Shown: positions 11,792 to 57,688, counted from the stretch's first letter. The stretch is 64,000 bases of DNA from Candidatus Yanofskybacteria bacterium RIFCSPHIGHO2_01_FULL_41_21 (GCA_001794025.1 MGJA01000003.1:76909-140908), one strand, 5' to 3'. Translations and numbers: made by a program. Notes: a model not told the origin generated them from the sequence alone.

Positions 11792-11796
11792 ATTCA

Positions 11797-19157: not shown

Positions 19158-19225
19158 ATTGATTCTTATTGTATTTTAAGATATTATGCCATGTAAGGTA
19201 CTATAAATCAAAATGAGAGTCAATA

Positions 19226-20317: not shown

Positions 20318-20342
20318 TGTTTCAATTTAACTGAATATAAAT

Positions 20343-21119: not shown

Positions 21120-21128
21120 ATTTAAATC

Positions 21129-26232: not shown

Positions 26233-26342
26233 CCCGTTAGAAATGAACCCTACGGGTATATGTATGAAAATCAATAATATAAAAATGATTGCAACTGGCC
26301 ACCATCTCAAGACGGTGGATGATCAGTTACATCTCTAACGGG
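26233..26342 (+). repeat. 110-nt TIR element copy 3; mini-ORF 26243-26338
   Basis: Same element; followed by ATG 26343. Confidence 0.9.
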
Positions 26343-43844: not shown

Positions 43845-43846
43845 AA

Positions 43847-45579: not shown

Positions 45580-46305
45580 ATGTTAGATGAACAAGGAGCG
45601 CAAAATTATTGGGGAAAGCAGGTTGAAAAAGGGGGAATGGAACCCTGTCACTATTTGAATAAATGGCAGGATAAATACGCCTTTGAAATTAGAACATCTG
45701 TTTTTAGAAGAAGTGATTTTCGGGGCCTTAAAAAGATAGTCGATATCGGATGTGGGGTTGGGGACTATACCGCGAAGATGTTCAAGCTTATTGATAGTGA
45801 TGCTCATATAGTTGGTTTTGATTTCCCTTTTAATATTGAAATTGCCCGCAAGAAACATAGGGATTTAAAGAACATTGTTTTCAAAGAAGGTTCGGTACCC
45901 GATGAAAACATTGAGTCGGACATAAAAAGCGCGGATGCGGTTATCATGACCACCGTCTATACCCATTTGACACCAGATTCCCGAGAAATTTTACTGGGCT
46001 ATTTTGAAAAAATGAAATCCGGTGCGAAAATGTTTATTCTGGAATATTTTCCCGAAGTTGTGCCGGAGTTTCAGAAGAATCAAGCCCATAAGATCGTTGA
46101 ATCATCTAAAGAAGTCCAGGTTCGTTTTATAAACCATGGTCTCCAGGTATTAGAAGTCCGTCCCGTTAATTATATTGATAGTTTCCTGTTCTTCCATTGG
46201 GGTAAAAATTGGTTCGTGTATTTTATAACCAAATGGCTGGATAATTTTGTTAGAGTTTTTAAATATTATCGTTCAAAATACAAGTTAATTATTTTTACAA
46301 GATGA
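45580..46305 (+). CDS. Class I SAM-dependent methyltransferase
   Basis: VDIGCGVGDYTAKMF. Confidence 0.65.
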   Translation: MLDEQGAQNYWGKQVEKGGMEPCHYLNKWQDKYAFEIRTSVFRRSDFRGLKKIVDIGCGVGDYTAKMFKLIDSDAHIVGFDFPFNIEIARKKHRDLKNIVFKEGSVPDENIESDIKSADAVIMTTVYTHLTPDSREILLGYFEKMKSGAKMFILEYFPEVVPEFQKNQAHKIVESSKEVQVRFINHGLQVLEVRPVNYIDSFLFFHWGKNWFVYFITKWLDNFVRVFKYYRSKYKLIIFTR

Positions 46306-47402
46306 AAATACAATTTCTATCGCCAAACTTAAATAAAAAAGATATCCAAGAAGCTGTCAAAGTTCTTAAATCGGGCTGGATTACCTATGGGCCGGTGACC
46401 GAAAAATTTGAAGAAATTTTTGCCGGATATGTCGGATCTAAAAAAGCGGTTTTTAATTCCAGTGGCACGGCGGCTCTGCACGTGGCGTTATTGGTAGCTG
46501 GTGTTGGTCCTGGCGATGAAGTCATCACAACTCCTCTTTCATATGTGGCAACCAGCAATGTTATTTTATATGTCGGTGCTACACCCGTATTTGTGGATGT
46601 GGATGCAAAGATGGGTCTTATAGATCTTAATAAAATTAAGGGAGCAATCACATCCAAAACCAAAGCTGTTATCCCGGTCCATTTATATGGCCAGATGGTG
46701 GATATGAAAAAGTTAAAGAAGATCTGTGGTGCTAAAATTAAGATTATTGAAGATTCGGCTCATGCTATTGAATCCGAACGGGATGGCATTAAACCTGGCC
46801 AGTTAAGTTTCGCATCTTGCTTCAGTTTTCATGCCGCAAAAAATATAACTTCCGGAGAAGGCGGAGCAGTTACGGTTAATGATGATAAATTGGCTCACGA
46901 ATTAAAATTATTGTGTGAAGGTGGAGTAGAAAGAACGAGTACGGGAAGGTTCATGACTTTATTGGGATATAAATATTCAGCCACAACTTTCCAGGCGGCG
47001 ATGTTGATTTCTCAGATGAAGCGTATCAATTCCGATTGGAAGAAGAGAAAAATTTTATGGGAACGTTACAAAAAGGGTTTAACTGGAGTTGCGGGTGTTT
47101 CTTTCCCTGAACAAGTACCAAACTCACGGCATGGATATAATATGTTTGTTATTTGGGTTGAACCGACCCGTCGAGATATACTAAGGGAAAAACTTGGTCA
47201 AGCCGGTATTCAAACATCCATTCATTTTAATCCGATTCACTTGGAACCACATTACAAAAAATCATTCGGTTATAAAAAAGGCGATTTTCCGGTTACTGAA
47301 AAACTTGGATTTTCCTCTATTACACTTCCTCTCCACCAAAAACTGACGAAAGAGAATCAAGATTACATAGTAGATAAAATTAAGGAATTATTGGAGGTCT
47401 AA
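46302..47402 (+). CDS. DegT/DnrJ/EryC1/StrS-family PLP-dependent sugar aminotransferase
   Basis: SSGTAALHVAL ... SFHAAKNITSGEGGAV (PLP Lys). Confidence 0.85.
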   Translation: MKIQFLSPNLNKKDIQEAVKVLKSGWITYGPVTEKFEEIFAGYVGSKKAVFNSSGTAALHVALLVAGVGPGDEVITTPLSYVATSNVILYVGATPVFVDVDAKMGLIDLNKIKGAITSKTKAVIPVHLYGQMVDMKKLKKICGAKIKIIEDSAHAIESERDGIKPGQLSFASCFSFHAAKNITSGEGGAVTVNDDKLAHELKLLCEGGVERTSTGRFMTLLGYKYSATTFQAAMLISQMKRINSDWKKRKILWERYKKGLTGVAGVSFPEQVPNSRHGYNMFVIWVEPTRRDILREKLGQAGIQTSIHFNPIHLEPHYKKSFGYKKGDFPVTEKLGFSSITLPLHQKLTKENQDYIVDKIKELLEV

Positions 47403-47406
47403 ATAT

Positions 47407-48141
47407 ATGGCAAAAAAAATAAGACAACGTATTGTCAATTTTTTTATAGATATCTTAAGTAAACCCTCAATTAGATATCGGTTCCTGTTGCCTTTGTCCA
47501 CGCTAATTTCAAAAAATCCTGATGAAGAGATATTGGAAAAGGCAATGAAATTTGCGGCTCATGTCGGTATAGGTGGGGATTATCTGGAATTTGGTGTTTG
47601 GAAAGGGCGCTCATTTGCTCGGGCGTATCATATGAGAAAATATATTAAAGACGCCAAACTTAACGGTATGAAATTTTATGCCTTTGACTCGTTTCAGGGT
47701 TTACCCGAAATAAAAAATGAACATGACACCAGTTCTTCCGAATTTAAAAAAGGTGATTACGCCTGCGACATAGGAACATTTAGACATAATCTTATCAATA
47801 AAGGTGTTGATCTTAAGGAGGTAACAATTATTCCCGGCTGGTACGAAGAAACTTTGAATGAAGAGACCAAAAATAAGTTGTCTCTTAAAAAAGCGTCAAT
47901 TATTTTTGTTGATTGCGATATTTATGAGTCAGCCGTTTCTGTTCTTAATTTTATAACCGATTATGTGGTAAATGGTACAATTATCATTTTTGATGATTGG
48001 TTTGCTTTCAGTGGCGACCCCGAAAAAGGTGAACAACGGGCTTTTAAAGAATGGTTGGAACGCAATCCAAATATCAAGGCCGTTGAATGGCAAAGAGTAA
48101 ATTGGAAAAGCAATTCGTTTATCTTAAACAAATCCCGTTAG
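47407..48141 (+). CDS. TylF/MycF-family sugar O-methyltransferase
   Basis: GDYLEFGVWKGRS ... IFVDCDIYES ... GTIIIFDDW. Its stop codon TAG lies inside the 5' TIR of repeat copy 5. Confidence 0.75.
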   Translation: MAKKIRQRIVNFFIDILSKPSIRYRFLLPLSTLISKNPDEEILEKAMKFAAHVGIGGDYLEFGVWKGRSFARAYHMRKYIKDAKLNGMKFYAFDSFQGLPEIKNEHDTSSSEFKKGDYACDIGTFRHNLINKGVDLKEVTIIPGWYEETLNEETKNKLSLKKASIIFVDCDIYESAVSVLNFITDYVVNGTIIIFDDWFAFSGDPEKGEQRAFKEWLERNPNIKAVEWQRVNWKSNSFILNKSR

Positions 48142-48243
48142 AAATGAACCCTATGGGTATAATAATGAAAATCAATAATATAAAACTGATTGTAACTAGC
48201 CACCACTCCAATATGGTGGACGGTTTGTCACATTTCTAACGGG
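48134..48243 (+). repeat. 110-nt TIR element copy 5; mini-ORF 48144-48239
   Basis: Most diverged copy but same length, TIRs and ORF frame; followed by ATG 48244. Confidence 0.9.
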
Positions 48244-49617
48244 ATGGATAGGCCAACCATATTTTTATCAAATTTTCATCCGTTTGTAACCAAGAATACT
48301 TTAAATTCCGGTGTTTTGGATGCCTTAGCTTCTCAATCTAAGGTTATTATTTTAGTTAGTAAAGAAAAGGAAGAATATTTTAAACAAATCTATGAAAAAG
48401 AAAATATTATTGTTGAGGGGATTAATTTAGACCCGTATATTAAAAGCGGTAAGAATAAAATTTTCATTCGTTTATCGGAATTACTGTTGGATACAAACGT
48501 GACCAGATTCCATCAGATGGAAGCATGCGTAAAAGACGGCAATTGGTTTAAATATTATTTCTTTCGGGCTTTCACAAGGACCTTGAGTCATTTTTTATTA
48601 TTTAAAAAATTAGTCCACGTGCTTGACTTTAAGATTGATAACCCAAAACCTTTCCAAAACATTTTTGAACATTACAAACCGCTGGCGGTTTTTGCGACCG
48701 ATGCTTTCGGGGATCACGATGTTTTTTTACTGAAAAATTCCAAATCTGCCGGAATAAAAACTATAGCTATGGTCCGTTCATGGGATAATACGACATGCCG
48801 TGGCTATCTGCGTTTCGTACCGGATAAACTTATAGTTCATAATGAGGTTATGAAAGCAGAGATGGTTAAATATCACGATATTGATATAGACACTATCAAT
48901 CTTAGTGGTGTGCCTCAATTTGAAAAATATATAGGTCTGAAAGCAAGTCCTAGAGATGAATTTTTTAATAGGATTGGAGCTAATCCGAATAAGCGTATGA
49001 TTTTATTTACGCCGGCCGGACAGTTTTTTATAGATTCCGACTGGCAGATATGCCAAATTCTTAAAGAACTTTATCTTGAGGAAAAGATTCCTCAAGATGT
49101 TCAATTTGTCGTGCGATTGCACCCATTTTTGCCAGTAGATTTATTAAGTTTTGAACCGGATGAAAATTTTATTATTGATGTGCCCGGTCCGGCAAAATTC
49201 AATAAACTGGAGAAAGACAAAAAAGAAGGTGAATTAGACACATTTTTCTTTCAACATATTTATGATTCTATCTATCATGCCTCGCTTGTCATCAATACAA
49301 TATCGTCAATTATTATTGATACGGCTATTTTTGATAAACCATTGATTACGATTAATTTTGACGGTTGGTTAAAAGACCCGCCCTTGCTGAGGAGTATATT
49401 GAAGCGTTGGCGGTTTGAGGAAAACCAGATTAATTGGATGAGTATCGGTTCTACGCGTCTGGCCGGAAGCAAAGAGGAATTGGCGAAATGGATTAATGAG
49501 TATCTTGAGCATCCGGAAATTGATCATGATAAAAGAGAAATTTTCAAACAGAAATACTGTTGGAAATATGACGGGAAATCGGCGGAAAGAATTGCCTCAA
49601 TTGTTCTGAGTAACTAA
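48244..49617 (+). CDS. Polysaccharide/teichoic-acid-type biosynthesis protein (TagB/TagF- or capsule-synthesis-like GT-B), uncertain
   Basis: Weak resemblance (MILFTPAGQFF ... VRLHPF). Confidence 0.35.
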   Translation: MDRPTIFLSNFHPFVTKNTLNSGVLDALASQSKVIILVSKEKEEYFKQIYEKENIIVEGINLDPYIKSGKNKIFIRLSELLLDTNVTRFHQMEACVKDGNWFKYYFFRAFTRTLSHFLLFKKLVHVLDFKIDNPKPFQNIFEHYKPLAVFATDAFGDHDVFLLKNSKSAGIKTIAMVRSWDNTTCRGYLRFVPDKLIVHNEVMKAEMVKYHDIDIDTINLSGVPQFEKYIGLKASPRDEFFNRIGANPNKRMILFTPAGQFFIDSDWQICQILKELYLEEKIPQDVQFVVRLHPFLPVDLLSFEPDENFIIDVPGPAKFNKLEKDKKEGELDTFFFQHIYDSIYHASLVINTISSIIIDTAIFDKPLITINFDGWLKDPPLLRSILKRWRFEENQINWMSIGSTRLAGSKEELAKWINEYLEHPEIDHDKREIFKQKYCWKYDGKSAERIASIVLSN

Positions 49618-49636: not shown

Positions 49637-50350
49637 ATGTCTAAAGTTATTACCATCATCCCCGCCCGGGGCGGAAGCAAAGGGGTACCAAGAAAGAACA
49701 TTAAGTCCCTGAACGGCAAACCCTTAATTGCTTATGCTATAGAAGCTGCCCTAAAATCAGGCGTTATTGACCGGGTTATTGTCTCAACTGAAGACAAAGA
49801 AATAGCCGAAGTGGCGAAGCAGTATGGGGCTGAAGTCATTAATCGTCCTGAAGATTTGGCGGGAGATAAGGTAACACTTGACCCGGTTATAAAGCAGGCC
49901 TTGGAGTTTTTGGAGACACAGGAAAATTATATTCCTGATTTTGTATCGTGTATTCAACCGACTTCCCCGTTATTGAAGTCGGAAATAGTGAAGGCGTGCG
50001 TTGGTAAAGTGGTAGATGAAGGTTTTGATTCATGTATTGCAGCTTTTTTACCCGATACATATGAATGGAAATGGAAGCCGGTATACGATGTATCGGGAAA
50101 AGAGATTTCTTTTGAACCGGAGTTTCCGGTTATGCAACGAGTTGTACGGCAGGATTTGCCCAAGGTCTATCATGAGAACGGAGCTTTTTATATCACAAAG
50201 TTATCATTATTTAAAAAAATCGGTCATCGTTGGGGCGGGAAAATGGCCGTGGTTGAAATGAGCGAAGAGGACTCCATTCAGATTGATAATCTGAATGAAT
50301 TTTGGATGATTGAACAGATTTTAAAGAGAAGACAAGGCGAAGTACAATAA
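49637..50350 (+). CDS. Acylneuraminate (nonulosonic acid) cytidylyltransferase, NeuA/LegF/PseF family
   Basis: IIPARGGSKGVPRKN ... GKPLIAY ... QPTSPL. Confidence 0.8.
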   Translation: MSKVITIIPARGGSKGVPRKNIKSLNGKPLIAYAIEAALKSGVIDRVIVSTEDKEIAEVAKQYGAEVINRPEDLAGDKVTLDPVIKQALEFLETQENYIPDFVSCIQPTSPLLKSEIVKACVGKVVDEGFDSCIAAFLPDTYEWKWKPVYDVSGKEISFEPEFPVMQRVVRQDLPKVYHENGAFYITKLSLFKKIGHRWGGKMAVVEMSEEDSIQIDNLNEFWMIEQILKRRQGEVQ

Positions 50351-50365
50351 TAATTATTTAAAAAA

Positions 50366-50392
50366 GTCCCGCCGGTGGTGTGCCGGCGGGAC
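50366..50392. terminator. Stem-loop terminator (gtcccgccgg-tggtgtg-ccggcgggac), U-tract on - strand
   Basis: 10-bp GC stem between convergent genes; A-run immediately upstream. Confidence 0.7.
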
Positions 50393-50409
50393 AAGGAAAG
50401 GTTCCAAAA

Positions 50410-52212
50410 CTACAGAGAAAGGATATCAAGTGTCCGACCGTTGTCGATACACTCTCTAACCTTAAGGAACTGATCGTTAGACATGTCACTGAAGTTGAGA
50501 GGTTCGCCCCCGACTTCAAGGACTTTTGTAGCGTCGTCCAGCTCCCGAAGATAATGGTGAAACTTTTCATCCATTACAGGATCCCATTCCACGATATTGG
50601 GATTGGTGGCAACTCGTTGGAACGACAGTCCGAACACGCGTGAAAGCTCGGCGCGGACTTTGTTGTTATTGATGAGGGTTACCCCCGGATACCAGGTCAT
50701 CGTGAACATTCGGGAGTTTACCGCTTCAGGTTTGGTTCCGAATTGCGAGTAGTACTCCATTTGCCATTGAATGAAGCGGACACTTTCTTGTACGTCTTTA
50801 ATCTTTTCAGTGGGTGAGCCGACAATCCAAGTACAATTGCCGTGGATACCGACCCGGGCTGCTTCTTGGATACCGACAATCATGGATGTAGGGAAGGAAT
50901 GCTTTCTCCCGCCGACCATAACCTCGGTGAAACCGTTGGTTAACGTGTGGCCACCTTTGCCGATGGCTTCCAGTACTTTTGCGCTGGCACTTTCGGGACC
51001 GAAGCCGATATATTTGCATCCGGCCTTGGCCATTATTTCGGCGGTGCCTTTCGTGGTTGCATTGAGACCGGCGACTTCATCAAGCCGAGTGTGGGTACCC
51101 CAGGCGACCAGGTTATTCAGATCCTTAATTCGACTAAGGGTAACCGCAAAATTGTCGTCGGGAAATCCATGAAACTTAATGTCGTAGCGTTCAATATGTT
51201 CCATGAGCTCTCGCATGATATGTCCCGCTGAACGGACACCCCAATTGCGTTCGCCTTGGGTCTTACGAAAGCAGTACTTACAACCGAACGGACAACCACG
51301 ACTGGATACCGACGTGGTTTTGGGAACCACATCTTTATCCTGCCAAGGTGCCGCAGATGAATTATTGGCGTTTGCACTCCAGGCCGGTACTTGCAGGTAC
51401 CAATCAAGGAGAGGATTGCCGTCAACATCCTCACGTAGAAGCTCGAGGTCGACGAAGGGGAGAGCGTCCAAATCTTTTGGTCGATCTCCCGCATATACGA
51501 AGCGATGTCGATCCCAAACTTTACCAATGTAGTAAGGTTCCAACTTGTCACTTGCAACAGCACTTCTCCATCCCTGTTGTTTGATGATTTTCGCATCGTG
51601 CACGATTTTGACAATGATATCGTCTCCTTCGGAATGAGCGGCCGCGTCAAGCTCGGGGATATAAAAAAACATACCCATTTTGAGCTCAGTCGCAAGACCG
51701 CCACCGGAGACAATGAACACATCGGGCAGAATGTTGCGGACCATCTTAACAACTTCTTCCTGCCACCTAAGCGTTGTGATTTTACCCGACAATGCGACGA
51801 GTTCAGGTTCGCCATGCCGAGCGATGTGACGTCGGATAAGTCCGAACGTTTCCTCTCCAGAAAGATGACGACCATGAACGAGACCTCGTTTTTTGGCGGT
51901 CTCATCTTTGATGCGATATGCATTCAGGTCAATAATCGTCGCATTGACACCGAATTCTTTACGAAGGCGGGTGACCAGAAGGAGTGGTCCTTCCGGTGTA
52001 GTGTTCGGGCGAGCTGATTCACGCAAGGGCATGTTGATGAACAAGACCTTAGCATCGGCAATTTCTCGGCGGGTGATGTTGGCGATGATATCTGCGGGGT
52101 GCGTGTGAGCACTGACCACAGGTACGAAAGGAGCGACAGGTAGAAGGGTTGTGCTCACAGTAACCTCACTTTCTTTGAGTTTTAAAGGGACTATTCCCGA
52201 AGCAATTATCAT
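50410..52212 (-). CDS. B12-binding (cobalamin-dependent, class B-like) radical SAM enzyme, putative sugar C-/unusual methyltransferase
   Basis: SRGCPFGCKYCF CxxxCxxC ~300 aa from the N-terminus, preceded by a B12-binding-like domain. Gene is visibly GC-richer than all neighbours. Confidence 0.7.
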   Translation of the reverse strand: MIIASGIVPLKLKESEVTVSTTLLPVAPFVPVVSAHTHPADIIANITRREIADAKVLFINMPLRESARPNTTPEGPLLLVTRLRKEFGVNATIIDLNAYRIKDETAKKRGLVHGRHLSGEETFGLIRRHIARHGEPELVALSGKITTLRWQEEVVKMVRNILPDVFIVSGGGLATELKMGMFFYIPELDAAAHSEGDDIIVKIVHDAKIIKQQGWRSAVASDKLEPYYIGKVWDRHRFVYAGDRPKDLDALPFVDLELLREDVDGNPLLDWYLQVPAWSANANNSSAAPWQDKDVVPKTTSVSSRGCPFGCKYCFRKTQGERNWGVRSAGHIMRELMEHIERYDIKFHGFPDDNFAVTLSRIKDLNNLVAWGTHTRLDEVAGLNATTKGTAEIMAKAGCKYIGFGPESASAKVLEAIGKGGHTLTNGFTEVMVGGRKHSFPTSMIVGIQEAARVGIHGNCTWIVGSPTEKIKDVQESVRFIQWQMEYYSQFGTKPEAVNSRMFTMTWYPGVTLINNNKVRAELSRVFGLSFQRVATNPNIVEWDPVMDEKFHHYLRELDDATKVLEVGGEPLNFSDMSNDQFLKVRECIDNGRTLDILSL

Positions 52213-52313
52213 ACCAGAAAATTAATTAAAATCAAGTTATTTCTTGACGTAATCAATTTTTTATATTACTTTATTACACGAATGTCCCTTGAAAACTTAT
52301 AAGGAGAATGTTG

Positions 52314-53030
52314 ATGTCTAAGCATAGAATCGTGACCATCATCCCCGCCCGGGGCGGAAGCAAAGGAGTGCCAAGAAAAAACATCAAGCTTTTGAACGGT
52401 AAACCCTTAATTGCTTATACCATTGAGGCCTCCCTAAAATCAGGCGTTATTGATAGAGTCATTGTTTCAACGGAAGACAAAGAAATAGCCGAAGTCGCAA
52501 AACAATATGGCGCTGAAGTCATTGTGAGACCTTCTGAGCTCGCTCAGGATCACTCATTGACCGACCCAGTCATGTTGCATGCGTTGGAAGAGTTAGAGAA
52601 ATCAGGGTACTATCCCGATTTAATTTCTCTGATTCAACCGACGTCACCGCTCTTGAACGCAGAATCGATTAAGATTGCGGTTGAAGCGGTTATCCAAAGG
52701 AATTTTGATTCATGTTTTACCGCTTTTTTGCCGGGAGGGTATGAGTTCAAATGGAGACATGTTGAAAAAGGAATTTTTGAACGTGCGGATTATCCATTGG
52801 AAAAAACTCCTCGCCGTCAGGATTTGCCAAAAATCTACCATGAAAATGGTGCATTCTACATAACTCGGACCGACCTTTTCAAGAGAACGGTAAATCGCCT
52901 TGGGGGAAGCAACGCTCGAATCTCTCTGGTTGAGATGAACCTAGAGGATTCTCTTCAGATTGATACTGTCTACGACTTCTGGCTTATTGACCAGATTTTA
53001 AGGAAAAGAGAGGAAGAAAACAGTGACTAA
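52314..53030 (+). CDS. Acylneuraminate cytidylyltransferase, second paralog
   Basis: N-terminal 68 aa and ~200 nt nearly identical to 49637-49840, remainder ~50% identical. SD aaggag 7 nt upstream of ATG 52314. Confidence 0.8.
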   Translation: MSKHRIVTIIPARGGSKGVPRKNIKLLNGKPLIAYTIEASLKSGVIDRVIVSTEDKEIAEVAKQYGAEVIVRPSELAQDHSLTDPVMLHALEELEKSGYYPDLISLIQPTSPLLNAESIKIAVEAVIQRNFDSCFTAFLPGGYEFKWRHVEKGIFERADYPLEKTPRRQDLPKIYHENGAFYITRTDLFKRTVNRLGGSNARISLVEMNLEDSLQIDTVYDFWLIDQILRKREEENSD

Positions 53031-54213
53031 AAAAGTAGAAGATATGCCCGGTACTCCGCCTCATCAGAAAAAAGCATTTTCTTGTAAGAGATACAGAGAA
53101 AATATCACCCCAGTTTCAATCCGAAAGCTTATTGTTTTGGTGGAATTGGAGAAACAAAATAGACGGTCTCCGTATTCAGAAAAGGTCCTGGCCGGTGTAA
53201 TTGATTTTCTTCTGAATACCGATTTTCATAATCTTGAAGGTCGGGGAATGAAGAAATCTTTTGCCAGGACCGAGCTTGAAACAGCCGTTTCTTACCTGGA
53301 TGAAAATCTTACTATCCAGTACCTGGTCTATCGGTACAAGTTTGCCGTCTATTCGGTAAATAGGATTGTGAATGATTTTCCTATTGTCTTGGCCATTGAA
53401 CCGACCAGTTTGTGTAATCTCAAATGTACGATGTGCTTTCAAGCGGATAGGTCGTTTTTCACATCCAAACCTCTGATGGGGTTTATGGATATGGATTTGT
53501 ACCGTCGTATAATTGATGAGGCCAATGAACATCAGTTGTGTTCTATTGTTTTGGCGAGTAGAGGTGAGCCCATGCTTCACAAAAACCTCGCCGAGATGAT
53601 TAGGTATGCAAACCGAAAAAGAATCATTGATGTCAAACTCAATACCAACGCGACTCGTCTTACGGAAGAAAAAAGTAGGGAGTTGCTTGAAGCAGAACCA
53701 AAGACCCTCGTTTTTTCCGTAGATGCTGGCAACAAGGAAGAGTTTGAAGCCATTCGGGTTGGAGCTGATTTTGATAAGGTTGTTCAGAACATCACCAGAT
53801 TCAATGATATTCGGGCGAAAGAATTTTCTCACTCTCAAACGAGAACCAGGATCTCAATGACCGTTTTTCGCGCCACTCAAGATGTCAAAGAAGCCGAAAA
53901 TTGCTGGTCTGGGTTGGTGGATGAATTTGCGGTTAATCCTTCCGACTATCGGTTGGATATTTACGAGCATCCGCCCCTGCCGGACGAAACTAAGGCCTGC
54001 AGTTTGTTGTGGGAACGACTCTATATCTGGTGGGACGGGAAAGTAAATCCTTGCGATATTGACTACAAGTCATGTCTGCACTTGGGTACTGTTGACGAGA
54101 ATACATCAGTGCAGTCCATTTGGCTCGGCGAGAAAATGCAATCCTTGCGGAAGAGCCATAGTGAAGGACGCAAGAATGACAATTACCCGTGTAGCCAGTG
54201 CTACGGATCCTAG
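53023..54213 (+). CDS. Radical SAM enzyme with C-terminal SPASM/twitch Cys cluster
   Basis: CNLKCTMCF plus C-terminal CDIDYKSC ... YPCSQC. Confidence 0.7.
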   Translation: MTKKVEDMPGTPPHQKKAFSCKRYRENITPVSIRKLIVLVELEKQNRRSPYSEKVLAGVIDFLLNTDFHNLEGRGMKKSFARTELETAVSYLDENLTIQYLVYRYKFAVYSVNRIVNDFPIVLAIEPTSLCNLKCTMCFQADRSFFTSKPLMGFMDMDLYRRIIDEANEHQLCSIVLASRGEPMLHKNLAEMIRYANRKRIIDVKLNTNATRLTEEKSRELLEAEPKTLVFSVDAGNKEEFEAIRVGADFDKVVQNITRFNDIRAKEFSHSQTRTRISMTVFRATQDVKEAENCWSGLVDEFAVNPSDYRLDIYEHPPLPDETKACSLLWERLYIWWDGKVNPCDIDYKSCLHLGTVDENTSVQSIWLGEKMQSLRKSHSEGRKNDNYPCSQCYGS

Positions 54214-54222
54214 GGGGTTATT

Positions 54223-55239
54223 GTGAGTAAACATTATCACGGAGTATTGTGGATAGGATTTGGGAGTTTCGCTAAACGACTCCTGCCTTATGTAGAGGAA
54301 TATCCCGGTGTCAGGATAAAAACGTATTTTCATCCCGACCGGGAAGAAGCGATAAAAAGGTTCGGCTCTAAGGCCAGCTGGGATATCGATGAGGCGATGG
54401 CCGATCCGGAGATTACTACGGTGTTTATCACGACACCAAACGATCTTCATTCCGAGTTTATCAAGTCCGCTCTTCTGGCCCGGAAACATGTGTTTGTGGA
54501 AAAACCGATAACCGCTTTCTACAGAGAAGCTGTTCAACTTTTGCCCACTATTCGTGCCAGTAAGTCGGTTTTGGCCGTGGGTCATCACATGAGACGCGAA
54601 GCCACTATCAGAAAAGCAAAGGATATTATTTCCGAGGGTGGTATCGGAAGAATTGTCAGCGTATATGCCAATCATTCTACTGGGTTCGCCTTTAATATGG
54701 ATAAGACCAACTGGCGGTTTTTCTCTTCCCGACATCGGGAAGGGCCGTTATTGACGGTTGGCGTCCATCTTGTGGAAGTATTGCATTACCTTTTGGGTCT
54801 GGTGGACTCTGTGTCGGCCGTGATAAAAAATCGTTCACTTCGGACGGATGCTCCGGATTCTAACGCGGTATTGTTGAGTTTCAAGGGTGGCGCTTCTGCT
54901 TTCCTTGAATCCAACTACAGCGTGTTATCCGAAAGCATGTTCCATATTCACGGTACGGAAGGTACGATTTATATAGATCGGGGGCAGTTACGGTTGCGTG
55001 TGGGACGCGATGTGGATAGGATTCCCACTGTTCCCTGTCTGATTCCATTGAACCCAGTCAATCCGTTTAAGGAAGAGATTGACGAATTTTTTGATGTAAT
55101 TGAAGCGAAAAAATCCACACCAGAAACCGGCTATCAAGAAGCCGTAAACGCTTTAGCGGTAATCGAGGCCTGTTACCGAAGTTCTTTGAAAGAAAAGATT
55201 GTAAGTATGAAATCTTTTCGAGGGTACTATTCCAAATGA
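54223..55239 (+). CDS. Gfo/Idh/MocA-family oxidoreductase
   Basis: GTG start preceded by AGGGGG SD; VFVEKPIT, Rossmann N-terminus. Confidence 0.7.
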   Translation: MSKHYHGVLWIGFGSFAKRLLPYVEEYPGVRIKTYFHPDREEAIKRFGSKASWDIDEAMADPEITTVFITTPNDLHSEFIKSALLARKHVFVEKPITAFYREAVQLLPTIRASKSVLAVGHHMRREATIRKAKDIISEGGIGRIVSVYANHSTGFAFNMDKTNWRFFSSRHREGPLLTVGVHLVEVLHYLLGLVDSVSAVIKNRSLRTDAPDSNAVLLSFKGGASAFLESNYSVLSESMFHIHGTEGTIYIDRGQLRLRVGRDVDRIPTVPCLIPLNPVNPFKEEIDEFFDVIEAKKSTPETGYQEAVNALAVIEACYRSSLKEKIVSMKSFRGYYSK

Positions 55240-55304
55240 CCAACCGTCGGTTACACCGATGGTTGGTCATTTATTTATTTTATAGCATGGATACCCCAAC
55301 AACC

Positions 55305-56588
55305 TTAGGTTCTATGTTTTCTAATCTCGGTCTCCAATAAATAGAAATTGTGAATTATGTTAACGATATAAACTATTAATATAGAAGCAATCACTCCCCA
55401 TATTCCATATAATCTGCCGAGAACTATATAGAGAGTTATTTTAATAATACTGGCACCTAAACTACTGTAATATAAAGGACGAACCATTTTATGGGCGCTA
55501 AAAATTCCGCTTATGTAATTGGCTGGAAGAGCAAATATCAGTGTAAGAGAAAAAACCTGTGAAAAGGTTATGGCATCCAAATATTTAGGCAGGAAAATTT
55601 TATAAAAAATCGGGGACAAGAGAATGTATGTGGCACTCATTAATGTTCCGATTAACATTCCTTGAAATACTCTCTTGTAAAAACTTTTATGGATATCCTC
55701 AAATGTTTTTTCAGCCAGTTTTGGCATTATCATAACGCCTAAATTTTTTACATATCCCCGTATCCTTTCCGGAATTGCCAGAGCCAAACCATATACCGCC
55801 AACTCAATAGCCCCCAGATAATGGAAAATTACAAGCTTATCAACGTATTGGGCTATACCGGATAAGACGTGCATGAAACTTAGGTGTCCAGTGTAGGTAA
55901 GGAGTTCTGTTTTTTGTTTTTCTTCTAGAATGATTTCGGACTTATGTAATTTAAGGGTTCTAAAATAAAAAAACAAAGTTGGACCAAGAATTGAAAGCGC
56001 ATAGGTTATAACTAAAGTAAATATATCATTCGTAAGTAGTGCCACTGTTATCAAAGATATTATTTGAATGGAGGAAGAAATGGTTCCATAGATTGAGCCT
56101 CTTTTGAAGTCCTTTTTTCCGGTCAAAAAAGCGCCGTAAGTATTAAAAGTGGTAGCCAGAGGAAAGGTAATTCCTAAAACAAATAAACATTTAGCTAATA
56201 GATTATTGCTGTTAAGAAAATAGTAGACGGATAATCCGGTTAAGACCGCTGAGAATATGAAGTTCCATTTAAGTTGAATTTTGACCGCATAGGAGAGTAT
56301 AGACGAAGAACCAGATTTTGCGGTGGCTTGGGCAACGGCATCATTCATGCCCGTAAGAGTAAGAAAAGAAAATGCGCCAGCTAAAGATAAAATGTATTTA
56401 TACGTGCCGTATGTTTCTTTCGGTAAAAAATTAGCAAAAACAATGACTTGAACCAAGCCAAGGATAGAACTTAAAAAAAATGCTGCCGTCAACCAAAAGC
56501 CACCCCGGGCAAGATAGAGAGTGTCAACATGCAGGTATTCTTGCAATTTAATAAGTGAGTTTTTGATTTTTTGTTTGACAGAAAACAT
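55305..56588 (-). CDS. Wzx-type polysaccharide flippase (MOP superfamily)
   Basis: 12+ TM helices; N-terminal polysaccharide-biosynthesis-protein pattern. Confidence 0.6.
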   Translation of the reverse strand: MFSVKQKIKNSLIKLQEYLHVDTLYLARGGFWLTAAFFLSSILGLVQVIVFANFLPKETYGTYKYILSLAGAFSFLTLTGMNDAVAQATAKSGSSSILSYAVKIQLKWNFIFSAVLTGLSVYYFLNSNNLLAKCLFVLGITFPLATTFNTYGAFLTGKKDFKRGSIYGTISSSIQIISLITVALLTNDIFTLVITYALSILGPTLFFYFRTLKLHKSEIILEEKQKTELLTYTGHLSFMHVLSGIAQYVDKLVIFHYLGAIELAVYGLALAIPERIRGYVKNLGVMIMPKLAEKTFEDIHKSFYKRVFQGMLIGTLMSATYILLSPIFYKIFLPKYLDAITFSQVFSLTLIFALPANYISGIFSAHKMVRPLYYSSLGASIIKITLYIVLGRLYGIWGVIASILIVYIVNIIHNFYLLETEIRKHRT

Positions 56589-56692
56589 GTCCCGGAAATA
56601 TTTATATCTCGTAATACATATAGTAACGATTTTTTGTTTTTAAATAAACACCCAGTTTCTTTAATTAAGGATAGTTTACAATATAATATAAA

Positions 56693-56714
56693 TATCAATA
56701 TGTCAATATTGATT
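56693..56714. promoter_or_regulatory. Palindromic candidate operator ATCAATAT-GTCA-ATATTGAT containing TCAATATTGA, in divergent promoter region
   Basis: Perfect 8-bp inverted repeat; same 12-mer tgtcaatattga recurs at 28117-28128 in another divergent promoter region. Confidence 0.4.
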
Positions 56715-56780
56715 TAATCTTTAAAAAGTTTATTATATGGACGGTTCTTTGGCAACGATGTTTCATTAAGGAGAAGATAC

Positions 56781-57647
56781 ATGGCAAAAGTGATGATTGG
56801 GAAGACGTTGGTTGGGTCTACCAAACCATGTTTCGTGGTTGCCGAAATCGGCATTAACCACAACGGCAGTTTGGAAATCGCCAAGAAACTGATTGATATG
56901 GCGGTCGAGGCGGGATGCGATGCCGTCAAGTTTCAGAAGCGGACCATTGACGTGGTCTACACGGCCGCGGAGCTTGCCAAGCCAAGGGAAAGCATTTTCG
57001 GTGAAACAAACGGTGATTTGAAACGCGGTCTTGAATTTGGTCGCAAACAGTACGAAGCGATTGATGCCTATTGTCGGGCAAAAGATATCTTGTGGTTCGC
57101 GTCCTGCTGGGATGAAGACAGCGTCAGTTTCATCCGGCAGTTTGATCCGCCATGCTACAAGATTGCGTCGGCATCGTTAACGGATGATGACTTGCTCGCG
57201 TATACTCGTGATCAAGGTAAGCCCATTATCCTTTCCACGGGGATGAGTACTCTTGAAGAGATTTACCACGCTGTCCGTATTTTGGGACGTAGTGAACTCG
57301 TGATTCTCCATGCGGTATCAACCTACCCATCGGAGGACAGAGACACAAATCTCAAAGTCATGGGCACGTTGCGTAAGAATTTCCCCGGAGTGCCTATCGG
57401 ATACAGTGGTCACGAGAAAGGAATTTCTCTGACCCTTGCAGCCGTGGTTATGGGAGCATGCATGGTTGAACGCCACATCACGTTGGAGAGAATGATGTGG
57501 GGTTCTGATCACTCCGCCAGTTTGGAACCCGAGGGGCTCAAAAAAGTTGTTCGGGACATTCGGAAGTTTGAATTGGCCCGAGGTGATGGGGTCAAGCGAG
57601 TTCTGCCGGCAGAACTTCCGATTAAGAATAAGCTCAGGAGGAAGTAA
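56781..57647 (+). CDS. Nonulosonic acid synthase (NeuB/LegI/PseI family), short form apparently lacking the C-terminal SAF domain
   Basis: KPCFVVAEIGINHNGSLEIAKKLIDMAVEAGCDAVKFQKR; canonical SD AAGGAG 8 nt upstream. Confidence 0.8.
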   Translation: MAKVMIGKTLVGSTKPCFVVAEIGINHNGSLEIAKKLIDMAVEAGCDAVKFQKRTIDVVYTAAELAKPRESIFGETNGDLKRGLEFGRKQYEAIDAYCRAKDILWFASCWDEDSVSFIRQFDPPCYKIASASLTDDDLLAYTRDQGKPIILSTGMSTLEEIYHAVRILGRSELVILHAVSTYPSEDRDTNLKVMGTLRKNFPGVPIGYSGHEKGISLTLAAVVMGACMVERHITLERMMWGSDHSASLEPEGLKKVVRDIRKFELARGDGVKRVLPAELPIKNKLRRK

Positions 57648-57659
57648 CTCTTTGATTTG

Positions 57660-57688
57660 GGCCCCGCGGTGGGGCCCTCTTTTTTTTG
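57660..57688 (+). terminator. Rho-independent terminator (gggcccc-gcggt-ggggccc + T8)
   Basis: 7-bp GC stem followed by TTTTTTTT. Confidence 0.85.

What the first reader, a model, noticed from the sequence alone, without database searches (positions are those of the whole stretch)
52314..57647. Atypical nonulosonic-acid module: two radical SAM enzymes plus a short NeuB lacking an SAF domain
The tight cluster comprises a NeuA paralog, a SPASM radical SAM gene (53023-54213), a Gfo/Idh/MocA oxidoreductase (54223-55239), a Wzx flippase, and a 288-aa NeuB-family synthase that appears to end before the usual C-terminal SAF/antifreeze-like domain. The nearest DegT aminotransferase and TylF-like O-methyltransferase are upstream at 46302-48141. 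Canonical sialic, legionaminic and pseudaminic acid pathways do not use radical SAM chemistry. A SPASM radical SAM next to the synthase suggests radical-mediated epimerisation, dehydration or deoxygenation (compare AprD4 or DesII-type chemistry) of the nonulosonic acid or its hexosamine precursor.
Basis: inference. Interest (0 to 1): 0.55.

Follow-up and report, generated by a model that had tools for sequence, protein, structure and literature searches.

The report
Radical-SAM-tailored sialic-acid-like sugar gene module
A surface-sugar gene cluster in an uncultured groundwater bacterium pairs a short sialic-acid-type synthase with two radical SAM enzymes; the same pairing recurs in hundreds of uncultured microbes, including major ocean lineages, which points to an uncharacterised way of modifying sialic-acid-like sugars.

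Summary
The window comes from a Candidatus Yanofskybacteria (CPR) contig. It encodes two NeuA paralogs, a 396-aa radical SAM enzyme translationally coupled to a Gfo/Idh/MocA oxidoreductase, a Wzx flippase, and an intact 288-aa NeuB with no SAF domain. A second, class-B/AprD4-like radical SAM lies just outside the stated interval (50410-52212, minus strand).

Refinements:
- The "SPASM" enzyme conserves only four auxiliary cysteines, which align with BtrN's. It is a Twitch enzyme, and BtrN is its best match by sequence and by fold.
- This family is large: 378 hits in species-representative genomes.
- In 28 of 35 loci with full flanks, NeuB or NeuA lies within 10 kb.
- Its direct neighbour is a Gfo oxidoreductase in about 47 of 77 loci and an aminotransferase in 7.
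- Both partner types process carbonyls, so the radical SAM most likely makes a keto-sugar.
- The class-B-like radical SAM sat in a SAF-less NeuB locus in all five CPR contexts examined.
- SAF-less NeuBs are already known (about 30% of the family; PDB 6NCS), so that feature alone is not novel. They do also lose the Glu134-equivalent residue.
- No searched paper links radical SAM enzymes to nonulosonic-acid biosynthesis.

The chemistry is inferred, not shown.

The parts
49637..50350 (+). NeuA-like cytidylyltransferase, paralog 1 (237 aa)
   Evidence: Pfam CTP_transf_3 1e-29. NCBIfam PseF 161.8 bits, below the 205.7 cutoff. 61% aa identity to paralog 2. The first 189 nt are 86% identical to paralog 2.
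50410..52212 (-). Class-B/AprD4-like radical SAM enzyme (600 aa): N-terminal Rossmann (B12-binding-like) domain plus a radical SAM core with CX3CX2C at C307/C311/C314
   Evidence: Pfam Radical_SAM 51.9 bits; B12-binding 22.5 bits, below the cutoff. Homologs at 54-86% identity throughout Patescibacteria. AF2 model pLDDT 85.8. Foldseek top hits are TsrM, OxsB, TokK, AprD4 (TMt 0.63), CysS and MgmA. All five other contexts examined are SAF-less NeuB loci.
50366..50392 (-). Terminator-like GC-rich hairpin plus T-run after the class-B-like radical SAM gene
   Evidence: 10-bp stem with 9 GC pairs, followed by TTTTTT. Consensus match only.
52308..53030 (+). NeuA-like cytidylyltransferase, paralog 2 (240 aa), first gene of the NeuA2/radical SAM/Gfo unit
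   Evidence: Pfam CTP_transf_3 1.7e-30. PseF 170 bits, below the cutoff. Its stop overlaps the radical SAM start by 8 nt. A natural CTP_transf_3 + radical SAM fusion protein exists (P0305).
53023..54213 (+). BtrN-like Twitch radical SAM enzyme (396 aa). It has an N-terminal helical domain of about 115 aa, a radical SAM core (C131/C135/C138), and a C-terminal single auxiliary-cluster domain (C326, C344, C390, C393).
   Evidence: Pfam Radical_SAM + SPASM. Invariant residues in the 22-sequence alignment. PDB profile search: best hit BtrN, 1.5e-16, with the auxiliary cysteines aligned. AF2 model pLDDT 90.1. Foldseek top hit BtrN 4m7t, E 1.6e-12, TMt 0.74.
54223..55239 (+). Gfo/Idh/MocA NAD(P)-dependent sugar oxidoreductase (338 aa), partner of the Twitch radical SAM
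   Evidence: Pfam GFO_IDH_MocA N- and C-terminal domains. Best PDB relatives are a putative NADPH oxidoreductase (3db2) and 1,5-anhydro-D-fructose reductase (2glx), both 2.9e-27. A Gfo-family gene lies directly next to the radical SAM in about 47 of 77 related loci.
55234..55272 (.). 18-bp palindromic hairpin between the convergent Gfo and Wzx genes (likely bidirectional terminator)
   Evidence: Consensus match only.
55305..56588 (-). Wzx-type (MOP/Polysacc_synt) flippase
   Evidence: Pfam Polysacc_synt 4.7e-18.
56781..57647 (+). SAF-less NeuB-family PEP-condensing ulosonic-acid synthase (288 aa)
   Evidence: Pfam NeuB 1-241/241, 259 bits, no SAF. NCBIfam NeuB_NnaB 262 bits (cutoff 399.65) and PseI 198 bits (cutoff 340.25). 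Best PDB hit is 6NCS, a 290-aa SAF-less NeuB. Metal and PEP residues are conserved, but the Glu134 equivalent is Ser. A terminator-like hairpin follows at 57659-57677.
46302..49617 (+). Upstream conserved block: DegT aminotransferase (46302-47402), TylF-like methyltransferase (47407-48141), and a TagF/Glyphos_transf-like GT-B protein (48244-49617; candidate transferase for the CMP-activated sugar)
   Evidence: Pfam. The block is syntenic with CPR locus L088: DegT 67%, TylF 77%, Glyphos 35% identity. A Glyphos_transf-like gene lies within 5 kb of the Twitch radical SAM in 16 of 80 loci.

Best explanation
The region is the sugar-acid part of a large Wzx/Wzy-type surface-glycan locus (about 17-63 kb of the window) in a Candidatus Yanofskybacteria genome. 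It makes a CMP-activated, tailored 3-deoxy-2-ulosonic (sialic-acid-like) sugar.

Shown:
- An intact SAF-less NeuB-family synthase keeps all PEP- and metal-binding residues.
- There are two NeuA-type cytidylyltransferases.
- A Twitch-type radical SAM has a fully Cys-ligated BtrN-like auxiliary cluster. It overlaps NeuA2 upstream and lies 9 nt from a Gfo/Idh/MocA oxidoreductase downstream.
- A second radical SAM has the class-B/AprD4-like architecture.
- Both radical SAM families recur next to NeuB/NeuA genes in many unrelated lineages.

Inferred mechanism:
1. NeuB condenses PEP with an aldose. Because both the SAF domain and the Glu134-equivalent residue are lost, this aldose is probably not a canonical N-acyl-hexosamine.
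2. NeuA activates the acid with CTP.
3. The Twitch radical SAM abstracts a hydrogen atom from a sugar carbinol carbon, probably at the CMP-sugar level. It uses its auxiliary [4Fe-4S] cluster as an electron sink to give a keto-sugar (BtrN-type dehydrogenation).
4. The adjacent NAD(P)H-dependent Gfo enzyme reduces the ketone. The net result is inversion of a stereocentre. If the radical step is a diol dehydration instead, the net result is deoxygenation.
5. In other lineages an aminotransferase takes the place of Gfo, which gives an amino group at that position.
6. The class-B-like radical SAM adds a second tailoring step: either cobalamin-dependent C-methylation or AprD4-like dehydration.
7. 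The product is transferred to the glycan, perhaps by the TagF-like GT-B enzyme, and exported by Wzx.
For: Gene content and coupling.

Twitch / BtrN similarity:
- The only invariant cysteines are C131/C135/C138 plus C326, C344, C390 and C393.
- The profile search aligns C344, C390 and C393 with BtrN C187, C232 and C235, and the CX17C spacing puts C326 on BtrN C169.
- Foldseek's top hit is BtrN, TMt 0.74-0.78.

Association with NeuB/NeuA:
- 378 relatives in species-representative genomes.
- 56 of 80 loci, and 28 of 35 loci with full flanks, carry NeuB or NeuA within 10 kb.
- Compact operons of NeuB-Gfo-radical SAM-NeuA exist in L038, L041 and L053.

Carbonyl-processing partner:
- Gfo lies directly downstream in 39 loci and directly upstream in 10. 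An aminotransferase (DegT or Aminotran_1_2) is directly adjacent in 7.
- The two partner types are interspersed among closely related radical SAMs.
- A natural fusion with an NAD-dependent 2-hydroxyacid dehydrogenase exists (P0314), and one with CTP_transf_3 (P0305).
- The Bacillus pseudomycoides and Streptomyces loci have Aminotran_1_2 overlapping the radical SAM, next to NeuB and CTP_transf_3.

Gfo: its closest solved relatives include an NADPH keto-sugar reductase.

Precedents:
- BtrN oxidises a secondary alcohol ahead of transamination in butirosin biosynthesis (own knowledge; Goldman et al. 2013, PNAS 110:15949).
- AprD4 works with its NADPH reductase partner AprD3 (PMC5461906).

Class-B-like radical SAM: 5 of 5 other contexts are SAF-less NeuB loci; fold.

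NeuB residues.
Against: - No biochemical data exist for any member of either radical SAM family. The substrate, the position attacked and the reaction type are all inferred.
- A plain alcohol oxidation followed by reduction could be done by NAD enzymes alone. The rSAM-plus-reductase pairing therefore fits the AprD4/AprD3 deoxygenation precedent at least as well.
- 7 of the 35 full-flank loci have no NeuB or NeuA within 10 kb. A distant (29% identical) homolog on an Azospirillum plasmid is not in a glycan context.
- The window lacks recognisable enzymes for the free-aldose precursor. No NeuC/PseG/LegG-type gene and no N-acetyltransferase was found in 17-63 kb. It also lacks the SIS, HAD and SDR genes seen in sister CPR loci. 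The NeuB substrate is therefore unknown.
- NeuB is transcribed separately from the NeuA2-rSAM-Gfo unit.
- Cobalamin binding by the second radical SAM is unproven. The Pfam B12-binding score is below threshold, and AprD4 has the same fold without binding cobalamin (own knowledge).
Confidence: 0.5

Rival explanations
1. AprD4/AprD3-style deoxygenation. The Twitch radical SAM is a 1,2-diol dehydratase that makes a deoxy-keto sugar. The Gfo enzyme is its NAD(P)H reductase partner. The product is an extra-deoxy ulosonic acid, or its deoxy precursor.
For: A radical SAM next to an NAD(P)H oxidoreductase is exactly the AprD4/AprD3 arrangement (PMC5461906). Deoxygenation is chemistry that NAD enzymes cannot do alone, which would explain the cost of a radical SAM. 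Gfo adjacency is seen in about 47 of 77 loci. Gfo's closest solved relatives include a keto-sugar reductase. DesII and BlsE are also among the fold neighbours.
Against: The enzyme is not built like AprD4. It has no Rossmann N-terminal domain. It does have a fully Cys-ligated auxiliary cluster like the dehydrogenase BtrN. In this window the other radical SAM is the one that shares AprD4's fold.
Confidence: 0.2
2. Stand-alone radical epimerase. The Twitch radical SAM inverts one sugar stereocentre by itself, as the Twitch enzymes HygY and NeoN do in aminoglycoside pathways. Gfo performs an unrelated step.
For: Twitch radical SAM carbohydrate epimerases exist (own knowledge: HygY, NeoN; NeoN is mentioned in PMC10991966). 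Stereoisomer diversity is the main axis of natural nonulosonic-acid variation (own knowledge).
Against: Those epimerases need a cysteine hydrogen-atom donor. Here the only invariant cysteines are the seven cluster ligands. Tight coupling to a carbonyl-processing partner, either Gfo or an aminotransferase, in most loci argues for a keto product being released.
Confidence: 0.08
3. The product is not a nine-carbon nonulosonic acid. The SAF-less NeuB condenses PEP with a different aldose, for example a sugar phosphate or a pentose or heptose. This gives a Kdo/Kdn-like or other-length ulosonic acid, which the radical SAMs then tailor. This rival concerns the product only and is compatible with the radical SAM mechanism above.
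For: SAF-less NeuBs lose both sugar-contacting elements of Neisseria NeuB. These are the SAF domain carrying Arg314 and the Glu134 equivalent, which is non-acidic in essentially all SAF-less copies and D/E in nearly all SAF-containing copies. Sister CPR loci and compact operons carry SIS_2 sugar-phosphate isomerases and KdsC-like HAD phosphatases next to the short NeuB. NCBIfam equivalog thresholds for NeuB and PseI are not reached. The window has no NeuC/PseG/LegG or N-acetyltransferase genes.
Against: This window has no SIS or HAD gene. A DegT aminotransferase, a dehydratase-type SDR enzyme and a NUDIX hydrolase upstream could still supply a modified hexose. The depositors of the nearest crystallised relative (6NCS) call it a NeuAc synthetase.
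Confidence: 0.3
4. Coincidental neighbours. The radical SAM genes are peptide/protein maturases or housekeeping enzymes that happen to sit in a glycan locus, and/or the short NeuB is a decayed pseudogene.
For: Pfam and NCBIfam give weak similarities to SPASM maturases, for example the tungsten-cofactor maturase at 98.8 bits against a 380 cutoff. SuiB and SkfB are among the fold hits. The class-B-like radical SAM is unusually conserved in CPR, and some copies carry inteins.
Against: Both radical SAM families show conserved synteny with NeuB/NeuA across phyla. Genes overlap, so there is no room for a precursor-peptide gene. There is no RRE hit, and the N-terminal domain of the model is mainly helical. 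The NeuB is full length compared with 6NCS and keeps its catalytic residues.
Confidence: 0.03

Closest known systems
BtrN (butirosin 2-deoxy-scyllo-inosamine dehydrogenase; Twitch radical SAM; PDB 4M7T/4M7S)
   Same: Best match by sequence profile (E 1.5e-16) and by structure (E 1.6e-12, TMt 0.74-0.78). Both have the CX3CX2C core. Both have a single auxiliary cluster with four Cys ligands at equivalent, aligned positions (CX17C...CX2C). Both act in a carbohydrate-type context and have aminotransferase partners in some loci.
   Different: Sequence identity is only about 20%. The window enzyme has an extra conserved N-terminal domain of about 115 aa that BtrN lacks. Its genomic context is NeuB/NeuA ulosonic-acid loci, not aminoglycoside clusters. 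Its usual partner is a Gfo/Idh/MocA oxidoreductase. Its substrate is unknown.
AprD4/AprD3 (radical SAM 1,2-diol dehydratase plus NADPH reductase; apramycin C3' deoxygenation; PDB 6FD2)
   Same: A radical SAM paired with an NAD(P)H oxidoreductase acting on a sugar (PMC5461906). The window's second radical SAM (50410-52212) shares the Rossmann-plus-radical-SAM architecture of AprD4 (TMt 0.63).
   Different: The Gfo-coupled enzyme (53023-54213) is not AprD4-like in architecture. The AprD4-like enzyme in the window has no adjacent reductase; sister CPR loci have an SDR nearby. Identity to AprD4 is about 14%, and the cobalamin-dependent methylases TsrM, OxsB and TokK score equally well.
Canonical CMP-nonulosonic-acid pathways (Neu5Ac: NeuC/NeuB/NeuA; pseudaminic: PseB,C,H,G,I,F; legionaminic: LegB,C,H,G,I,F)
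   Same: A NeuB-family PEP-condensing synthase plus NeuA/PseF-type cytidylyltransferase(s), inside a Wzx/Wzy glycan locus with a DegT aminotransferase nearby.
   Different: There is no hydrolysing 2-epimerase or nucleotidase (NeuC/LegG/PseG) and no N-acetyltransferase in 17-63 kb. All equivalog scores are below cutoff. The synthase lacks SAF and the Glu134 equivalent. Two radical SAM enzymes are present, which none of these pathways uses (own knowledge; no paper in the searched library links them).
SAF-less NeuB subfamily (for example PDB 6NCS, a 290-aa 'N-acetylneuraminic acid synthetase')
   Same: Same length and same C-terminal end, with E 7e-44. SAF-less NeuBs make up about 30% of the family and come mostly from environmental organisms (PMC8208679).
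   Different: 6NCS keeps an acidic residue (Asp) at the Glu134-equivalent position. The window protein has Ser, and its CPR, Planctomycete, SAR11 and Thaumarchaeal relatives have Cys, Ser, His, Asn, Thr or Met. I found no defined substrate for any SAF-less member.

Membership tests
NeuB family (PF03102) PEP-condensing ulosonic-acid synthases | Full-length NeuB TIM-barrel domain | tested here: met
   Pfam NeuB 1-241/241, 259.3 bits.
NeuB family (PF03102) PEP-condensing ulosonic-acid synthases | Metal ligands and PEP-binding residues (N. meningitidis numbering: E25, K53, Q55, K129, S132, S154, S213, H215, E234, H236, D247) | tested here: met
   All are conserved in the alignment to 1XUU and across 60 related NeuBs.
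Canonical Neu5Ac/Pse/Leg synthases (NeuB_NnaB TIGR03569, PseI TIGR03586) | C-terminal SAF (antifreeze-like) domain that supplies Arg314 to the sugar site | tested here: not met
   No SAF hit. The protein ends 16 residues after the NeuB domain.
Canonical Neu5Ac/Pse/Leg synthases (NeuB_NnaB TIGR03569, PseI TIGR03586) | Acidic residue at the Glu134 position | tested here: not met
   Ser132 in the window protein. The position is non-acidic in essentially all SAF-less relatives and D/E in nearly all SAF-containing ones.
Canonical Neu5Ac/Pse/Leg synthases (NeuB_NnaB TIGR03569, PseI TIGR03586) | Score above the curated equivalog cutoff | tested here: not met
   262 bits against 399.65; 197.9 bits against 340.25.
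Pseudaminic/legionaminic/Neu5Ac pathway as a whole | Presence of NeuC/LegG/PseG-type sugar-nucleotide hydrolase/2-epimerase, PseH/LegH N-acetyltransferase, and PseF/PseC equivalogs | tested here: not met
   No Epimerase_2 or acetyltransferase domain in ORFs of 17-63 kb. PseF scores 162 and 170 bits, below 205.7. PseC scores 307.7 bits, below 423.5. The 1-17 kb part of the window was not scanned.
Radical SAM superfamily | CX3CX2C cluster motif and GGE-type SAM motif | tested here: met
   Twitch enzyme: C131-X3-C135-X2-C138 and the invariant R180-G181-E182-P183. Second enzyme: C307-X3-C311-X2-C314. Pfam Radical_SAM is above cutoff for both.
SPASM subfamily (two auxiliary clusters; 7-Cys motif CX9-15GX4C...CX2CX5CX3C...C) | Seven conserved auxiliary cysteines | tested here: not met
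   Only four auxiliary cysteines are invariant (C326, C344, C390, C393). The CX2CX5CX3C block is absent.
Twitch subfamily (BtrN-type single auxiliary cluster) | CX~17C...CX2C ligands that superpose on the BtrN auxiliary-cluster ligands | tested here: met
   The profile alignment to 4M7S places C344, C390 and C393 on BtrN C187, C232 and C235, and the identical CX17C spacing puts C326 on C169. Fold match TMt 0.74-0.78.
BtrN orthologs (2-DOIA dehydrogenase) | Aminoglycoside (2-deoxystreptamine) cluster context and a protein of about 250 aa without an N-terminal extension | tested here: not met
   The context is NeuB/NeuA glycan loci. An extra conserved N-terminal domain of about 115 aa is present.
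RiPP/protein maturase SPASM enzymes (anSME, SuiB, CteB, etc.) | N-terminal RRE domain and/or an adjacent precursor-peptide or target-protein gene | tested here: not met
   No RRE Pfam hit. The modelled N-terminal domain is mainly helical with one short strand. Flanking genes overlap or lie 9 nt away and encode sugar enzymes.
NCBIfam NF033640 (N_Twi_rSAM) | Score above the curated cutoff | tested here: not met
   77.5 bits against a cutoff of 170.
Class B (cobalamin-dependent) radical SAM enzymes | N-terminal Rossmann cobalamin-binding domain followed by the radical SAM core | tested here: inconclusive
   The fold matches TsrM, OxsB, TokK and CysS (E 1e-11 to 1e-13). It matches the cobalamin-free AprD4 equally well. 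Pfam B12-binding scores 22.5 bits against a 32.1 cutoff. Cobalamin binding cannot be tested with these tools.
Gfo/Idh/MocA oxidoreductases | N-terminal Rossmann domain plus C-terminal alpha/beta domain, with the EKP motif | tested here: met
   Pfam PF01408, PF02894 and PF22725 are all above cutoff. The sequence contains VFVEKPIT. No NCBIfam equivalog cutoff is reached, so specificity is unknown.

The most novel reading that the evidence does not exclude
A very widespread and so far undescribed radical-SAM-dependent branch of ulosonic-acid biosynthesis exists. A BtrN-like Twitch enzyme, paired with a Gfo reductase or an aminotransferase, and often a class-B/AprD4-like radical SAM, convert NeuB-derived sugars into structurally new sialic-acid-like monosaccharides (new epimers, deoxy, amino or C-methyl forms). 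These sugars would decorate the surfaces of CPR bacteria, DPANN archaea, SAR11, marine Thaumarchaeota and picocyanobacteria. The SAF-less, Glu134-less NeuBs would use a non-canonical aldose.
Probability: 0.4. Interest if true: 0.8.

Novelty: new variant of a known kind. Interest (0 to 1): 0.6.

Why it matters
Nonulosonic acids are key determinants of microbial cell-surface identity. They affect phage and predator recognition, host mimicry, and flagellin and S-layer glycosylation. All characterised pathways rely on NAD-, PLP- and acetyl-CoA-dependent chemistry.

If radical SAM tailoring is a regular part of NeuB/NeuA loci, the chemical space of sialic-acid-like sugars is larger than current pathway models predict. 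The evidence for regularity is 378 species-level genomes and about 3,000 protein clusters at 50% identity. The organisms concerned include some of the most abundant on Earth (SAR11, ammonia-oxidising archaea, picocyanobacteria) and the poorly understood CPR and DPANN groups.

The finding also yields a directly testable four-gene operon (NeuB-Gfo-radical SAM-NeuA) and culturable carriers (Bacillus pseudomycoides, Streptomyces) for enzymology. It adds a new substrate class for Twitch radical SAM enzymes. It also offers a rationale for the SAF-less NeuB clade, whose function is unknown.

Tried and rejected
1. Housekeeping or peptide-maturase origin of the SPASM-annotated enzyme. Rejected by synteny, the absence of an RRE, and the lack of space for a peptide gene.
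2. I first suspected the GC-rich, highly conserved, sometimes intein-bearing class-B-like radical SAM was a CPR housekeeping gene inserted between duplicated NeuA genes. Rejected because all five other contexts examined are SAF-less NeuB loci.
3. Truncated or pseudogene NeuB. Rejected.
4. A specific link between SAF-less NeuB and the Twitch radical SAM. Not supported: only 17 of the 49 NeuB-containing loci have a short NeuB, against 32 with a SAF-containing one, which is similar to the ~30% of NeuB sequences that lack SAF. The link does hold for the CPR class-B-like radical SAM (6 of 6 including the window).
5. Literature searches for radical SAM together with nonulosonic, legionaminic, pseudaminic, NeuB, or neuraminate synthase plus cytidylyltransferase, and for Patescibacteria with sialic acid. 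They found nothing relevant. The library is mainly open-access papers, so this is not proof of absence.
6. A plasmid-database search with the Twitch enzyme. It found only 29-30% identical, N-terminally shorter homologs outside glycan contexts, which is uninformative for this clade.
7. A search of the window for the SIS, HAD, SDR and ~200-aa unknown genes of sister CPR loci. None found.
8. Two papers could not be retrieved: AprD4/AprD3 (PMC4943880) and the BtrN structure (PMC3791736). Statements about the AprD3 protein family and the BtrN ligand numbering therefore rest on my own knowledge plus the alignment.

Full report
**1. What is in the sequence**

On the plus strand:
- A NeuA-type cytidylyltransferase at 52308-53030.
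- A 396-aa Radical_SAM + SPASM protein at 53023-54213. Its GTG start overlaps the NeuA stop by 8 nt.
- A Gfo/Idh/MocA oxidoreductase at 54223-55239, after a 9-nt gap.
- A 288-aa NeuB-family protein at 56781-57647.

A Wzx flippase lies on the minus strand at 55305-56588.

The "second radical SAM" of the title lies outside the stated interval, at 50410-52212 on the minus strand (600 aa). It sits between two NeuA paralogs: 49637-50350 and 52308-53030. The paralogs are 61% identical as proteins, and their first ~60 residues are almost identical.

The radical SAM protein is 100% identical to a GenBank protein of Candidatus Yanofskybacteria, so the window is from a CPR/Patescibacteria genome.

The surroundings from about 17 kb to 63 kb form one very large glycan locus. 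It contains:
- many GT1, GT2 and PMT_2 glycosyltransferases;
- O- and C-methyltransferases;
- 4,6-dehydratase-type SDR enzymes;
- a second Gfo enzyme, a NUDIX hydrolase, and a DegT aminotransferase;
- a TagF-like GT-B protein;
- two Wzx genes, a Wzy_C-TPR protein, and an initiating Bac_transf enzyme.

Terminator-like hairpins suggest three transcription units:
- NeuA2-radical SAM-Gfo;
- the class-B-like radical SAM alone;
- NeuB alone.

**2. The short NeuB**

The protein matches the Pfam NeuB model end to end and has no SAF domain. Its best PDB relative is 6NCS, a 290-aa SAF-less NeuB that ends at the same residues. It is therefore a natural short form and not a truncation.

SAF-less NeuBs are already documented: about 30% of 13,941 NeuB sequences, mostly from environmental organisms (PMC8208679). 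That feature alone is not novel.

I aligned the window protein with 60 NeuBs from related loci and with N. meningitidis NeuB. All metal- and PEP-binding residues are kept. The Glu134 equivalent differs:
- It is Ser in the window protein.
- It is non-acidic in essentially all SAF-less copies.
- It is Asp or Glu in nearly all SAF-containing copies.

Arg314 (in the SAF domain) and Glu134 both line the sugar site of the Neisseria enzyme (own knowledge: Gunawan et al. 2005; Joseph et al. 2013). The aldose substrate of this clade is therefore probably non-canonical.

NCBIfam equivalog cutoffs for NeuB, PseI, PseF and PseC are all missed. No NeuC/PseG/LegG or N-acetyltransferase gene was found in 17-63 kb.

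**3. The SPASM-annotated radical SAM is a BtrN-like Twitch enzyme**

In a 22-sequence alignment spanning 38-62% identity, the only invariant cysteines are:
- the CX3CX2C triad (C131, C135, C138);
- four others (C326, C344, C390, C393) in the pattern CX17C...CX2C.

This is not the seven-Cys SPASM motif.

A profile search of the PDB ranks BtrN first (E 1.5e-16). It aligns C344, C390 and C393 with BtrN C187, C232 and C235, and the identical spacing puts C326 on C169.

An AlphaFold model (pLDDT 90.1) also hits BtrN first in Foldseek (E 1.6e-12, TMt 0.74-0.78). SuiB, DesII, SkfB, BlsE and MoaA follow.

The family has an additional conserved, mainly helical N-terminal domain of about 115 aa that BtrN lacks. 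No further cysteine is conserved. This argues against a HygY/NeoN-type epimerase that uses a cysteine hydrogen donor.

**4. The Twitch radical SAM belongs to NeuB/NeuA loci and always sits next to a carbonyl-processing enzyme**

The family is large:
- about 800 hits in the word-indexed search;
- 3,029 representatives of 50%-identity clusters at E <= 1e-30;
- 378 confirmed loci among species-representative genomes.

The carriers include CPR, DPANN/Woesearchaeota, SAR11, Nitrosopumilus and Nitrosopelagicus, cyanobacteria, Chloroflexota, Omnitrophota, Planctomycetota and Nitrospirota.

Association with NeuB/NeuA in the 80 retrieved loci:
- 56 of 80 carry NeuB or NeuA within 10 kb.
- Among the 35 loci with full flanks, 28 carry NeuB or NeuA, 25 carry NeuB, and 18 carry both.
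- A 20-kb window covers at most about 1% of a genome that has 0-2 NeuB genes, so chance would give about 1-2% (order-of-magnitude argument, not computed).

Immediate co-directional neighbours in 77 loci:
- a Gfo-family gene directly downstream in 39 and directly upstream in 10, usually overlapping or fewer than 20 nt away;
- an aminotransferase (DegT or Aminotran_1_2) directly adjacent in 7.

A neighbour-joining ordering shows the aminotransferase-partnered enzymes interspersed among the Gfo-partnered ones.

Compact operons exist in a Pirellulales, a Scalinduaceae and a Nitrospirota MAG: short NeuB, Gfo, radical SAM, NeuA. HAD phosphatases, methyltransferases and class-B radical SAMs follow in some of them.

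Natural fusions join the Twitch enzyme to CTP_transf_3, to an NAD-dependent 2-hydroxyacid dehydrogenase, and to an FkbM methyltransferase.

In Bacillus pseudomycoides and a Streptomyces, the enzyme overlaps an Aminotran_1_2 gene. It sits with NeuB, CTP_transf_3, SDR and SIS genes beside NRPS/ATP-grasp genes.

A ketoreductase and an aminotransferase both need a carbonyl. The most economical inference is that the radical SAM produces a keto (or aldehyde) sugar.

**5. The second radical SAM**

The 600-aa protein has very conserved homologs (54-86% identity) across Patescibacteria, and some copies carry inteins. I first suspected a housekeeping gene.

All five other contexts inspected are SAF-less NeuB loci. 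They contain CTP_transf_3 and, variably, SDR, SIS_2 and KdsC-like HAD genes.

One of these loci (L088) shares the window's upstream block: GT1 84%, methyltransferase 80%, TylF 77%, DegT 67% identity. Where the window has NeuA2 + Twitch radical SAM + Gfo, L088 has an SDR, two unknown ~200-aa proteins and another class-B radical SAM. This looks like an exchange of tailoring cassettes. The near-identical 5' ends of the two NeuA genes may mark the junction.

The AlphaFold model (pLDDT 85.8) matches two groups about equally well:
- the cobalamin-dependent radical SAMs TsrM, OxsB, TokK, CysS and MgmA;
- the cobalamin-free diol dehydratase AprD4 (TMt 0.63).

C-methylation and AprD4-type dehydration are therefore both open.

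**6. Mechanism proposed**

Steps marked "inferred" are not shown.
1. NeuB condenses PEP with a non-canonical aldose (inferred).
2. NeuA makes the CMP ester (family-level inference).
3. The Twitch enzyme abstracts a carbinol hydrogen and oxidises the radical through its auxiliary cluster to a ketone, as BtrN does (inferred from homology, cluster ligation and partner identity).
4. Gfo reduces the ketone with NAD(P)H, giving an inverted stereocentre (inferred).

The main rival is AprD4/AprD3-like dehydration plus reduction, which gives net deoxygenation. The precedent is in PMC5461906.

Gene overlap with NeuA2 and the CTP_transf_3 fusion hint that the CMP-sugar is the substrate.

**7. Novelty**

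NeuB/NeuA modules, SAF-less NeuBs, Twitch radical SAMs and class-B radical SAMs are all known kinds. What appears undescribed is their systematic combination.

Full-text searches combining radical SAM with nonulosonic, legionaminic, pseudaminic, NeuB or neuraminate-synthase terms found nothing relevant. The library is mainly open-access papers, so prior work cannot be excluded.

I rate this a new variant of a known kind, with interest 0.6. It is a solid and widely conserved genomic association in ecologically important lineages. It comes with a testable enzymology hypothesis, but there is no experimental evidence on the chemistry.

Noticed in passing
window 49637-50350 and 52308-53030 (especially 49652-49840 vs 52335-52523): The two NeuA paralogs are 61% identical overall. 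Their first 189 nt are 86% identical, while later segments are 71-76% identical. This could be a gene-conversion or recombination footprint. Compared with the syntenic CPR locus L088, the window seems to have swapped an SDR + 2 unknowns + class-B radical SAM cassette for NeuA2 + Twitch radical SAM + Gfo.
   Followed up: partly
window 50001-52000 (and 52-58 kb): GC content is 0.478 over the class-B-like radical SAM gene and 0.41-0.43 up to 58 kb, against about 0.36-0.40 elsewhere. This may reflect strong conservation or composition of that gene, or a horizontally acquired cassette. A 268-aa ORF nested on the same strand in another frame (51117-51923) is probably spurious.
   Followed up: no
homologs of window 50410-52212 (P0202, P0215): Some CPR homologs of the class-B-like radical SAM are 913-919 aa long and carry a LAGLIDADG_3 (PF14528) domain, which is an intein-like insertion. 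That is unusual for a glycan-tailoring enzyme.
   Followed up: no
window 48244-49617; related genes in 16 of 80 loci (e.g. L076 2510-4399, L010, L061): A TagF/Glyphos_transf-like GT-B protein recurs next to the Twitch radical SAM/NeuA genes. It has weak similarity to LpxB, Capsule_synth and Epimerase_2 models. It is a candidate CMP-ulosonate transferase.
   Followed up: partly
window 41882-44395: Three genes lie in a row: a short (326-aa) UDP-glucose/GDP-mannose dehydrogenase-like ORF with no hit to the C-terminal UDP-binding domain, an NAD-dependent epimerase/dehydratase, and a NUDIX hydrolase. The NUDIX could replace PseG/NeuC-type release of the free sugar for NeuB. This is speculative.
   Followed up: no
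L081/L082 (Bacillus pseudomycoides) 5659-16776 and L083 (Streptomyces sp.) 6122-21194: In cultured Firmicutes and Actinobacteria, the Twitch radical SAM sits with NeuB, CTP_transf_3 (fused to a xylose-isomerase-like TIM barrel in Bacillus), Aminotran_1_2, SDR, SIS, PhyH, ATP-grasp, a TPP enzyme, and NRPS/PCP/thioesterase genes. Integrase or relaxase genes are nearby. This looks like a natural-product-type cluster built around a CMP-ulosonic acid.
   Followed up: partly
L084-L091 (CPR loci): CPR genomes share a recurring set of genes. The set comprises a SAF-less NeuB (282-337 aa), a class-B-like radical SAM, CTP_transf_3, an SDR, a SIS_2 isomerase, one to three KdsC-like HAD phosphatases, and two unknown ~200-aa proteins. 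It resembles a Kdo-style (isomerase/synthase/phosphatase/cytidylyltransferase) pathway built on NeuB rather than KdsA.
   Followed up: partly
L074, L075, L077, L078 (Omnitrophota / delta-proteobacterial / PVC MAGs), about 8.9-12 kb: Two tandem, overlapping paralogs of the Twitch radical SAM directly follow a SAF-containing NeuB. This suggests two successive radical steps in those lineages.
   Followed up: no
window 28559-29818 and 26289-27368: An NDP-hexose C-methyltransferase-type protein (Methyltransf_13/14) and a second Gfo/Idh/MocA oxidoreductase lie elsewhere in the same giant glycan region. This points to further unusual (branched-chain) sugars.
   Followed up: no
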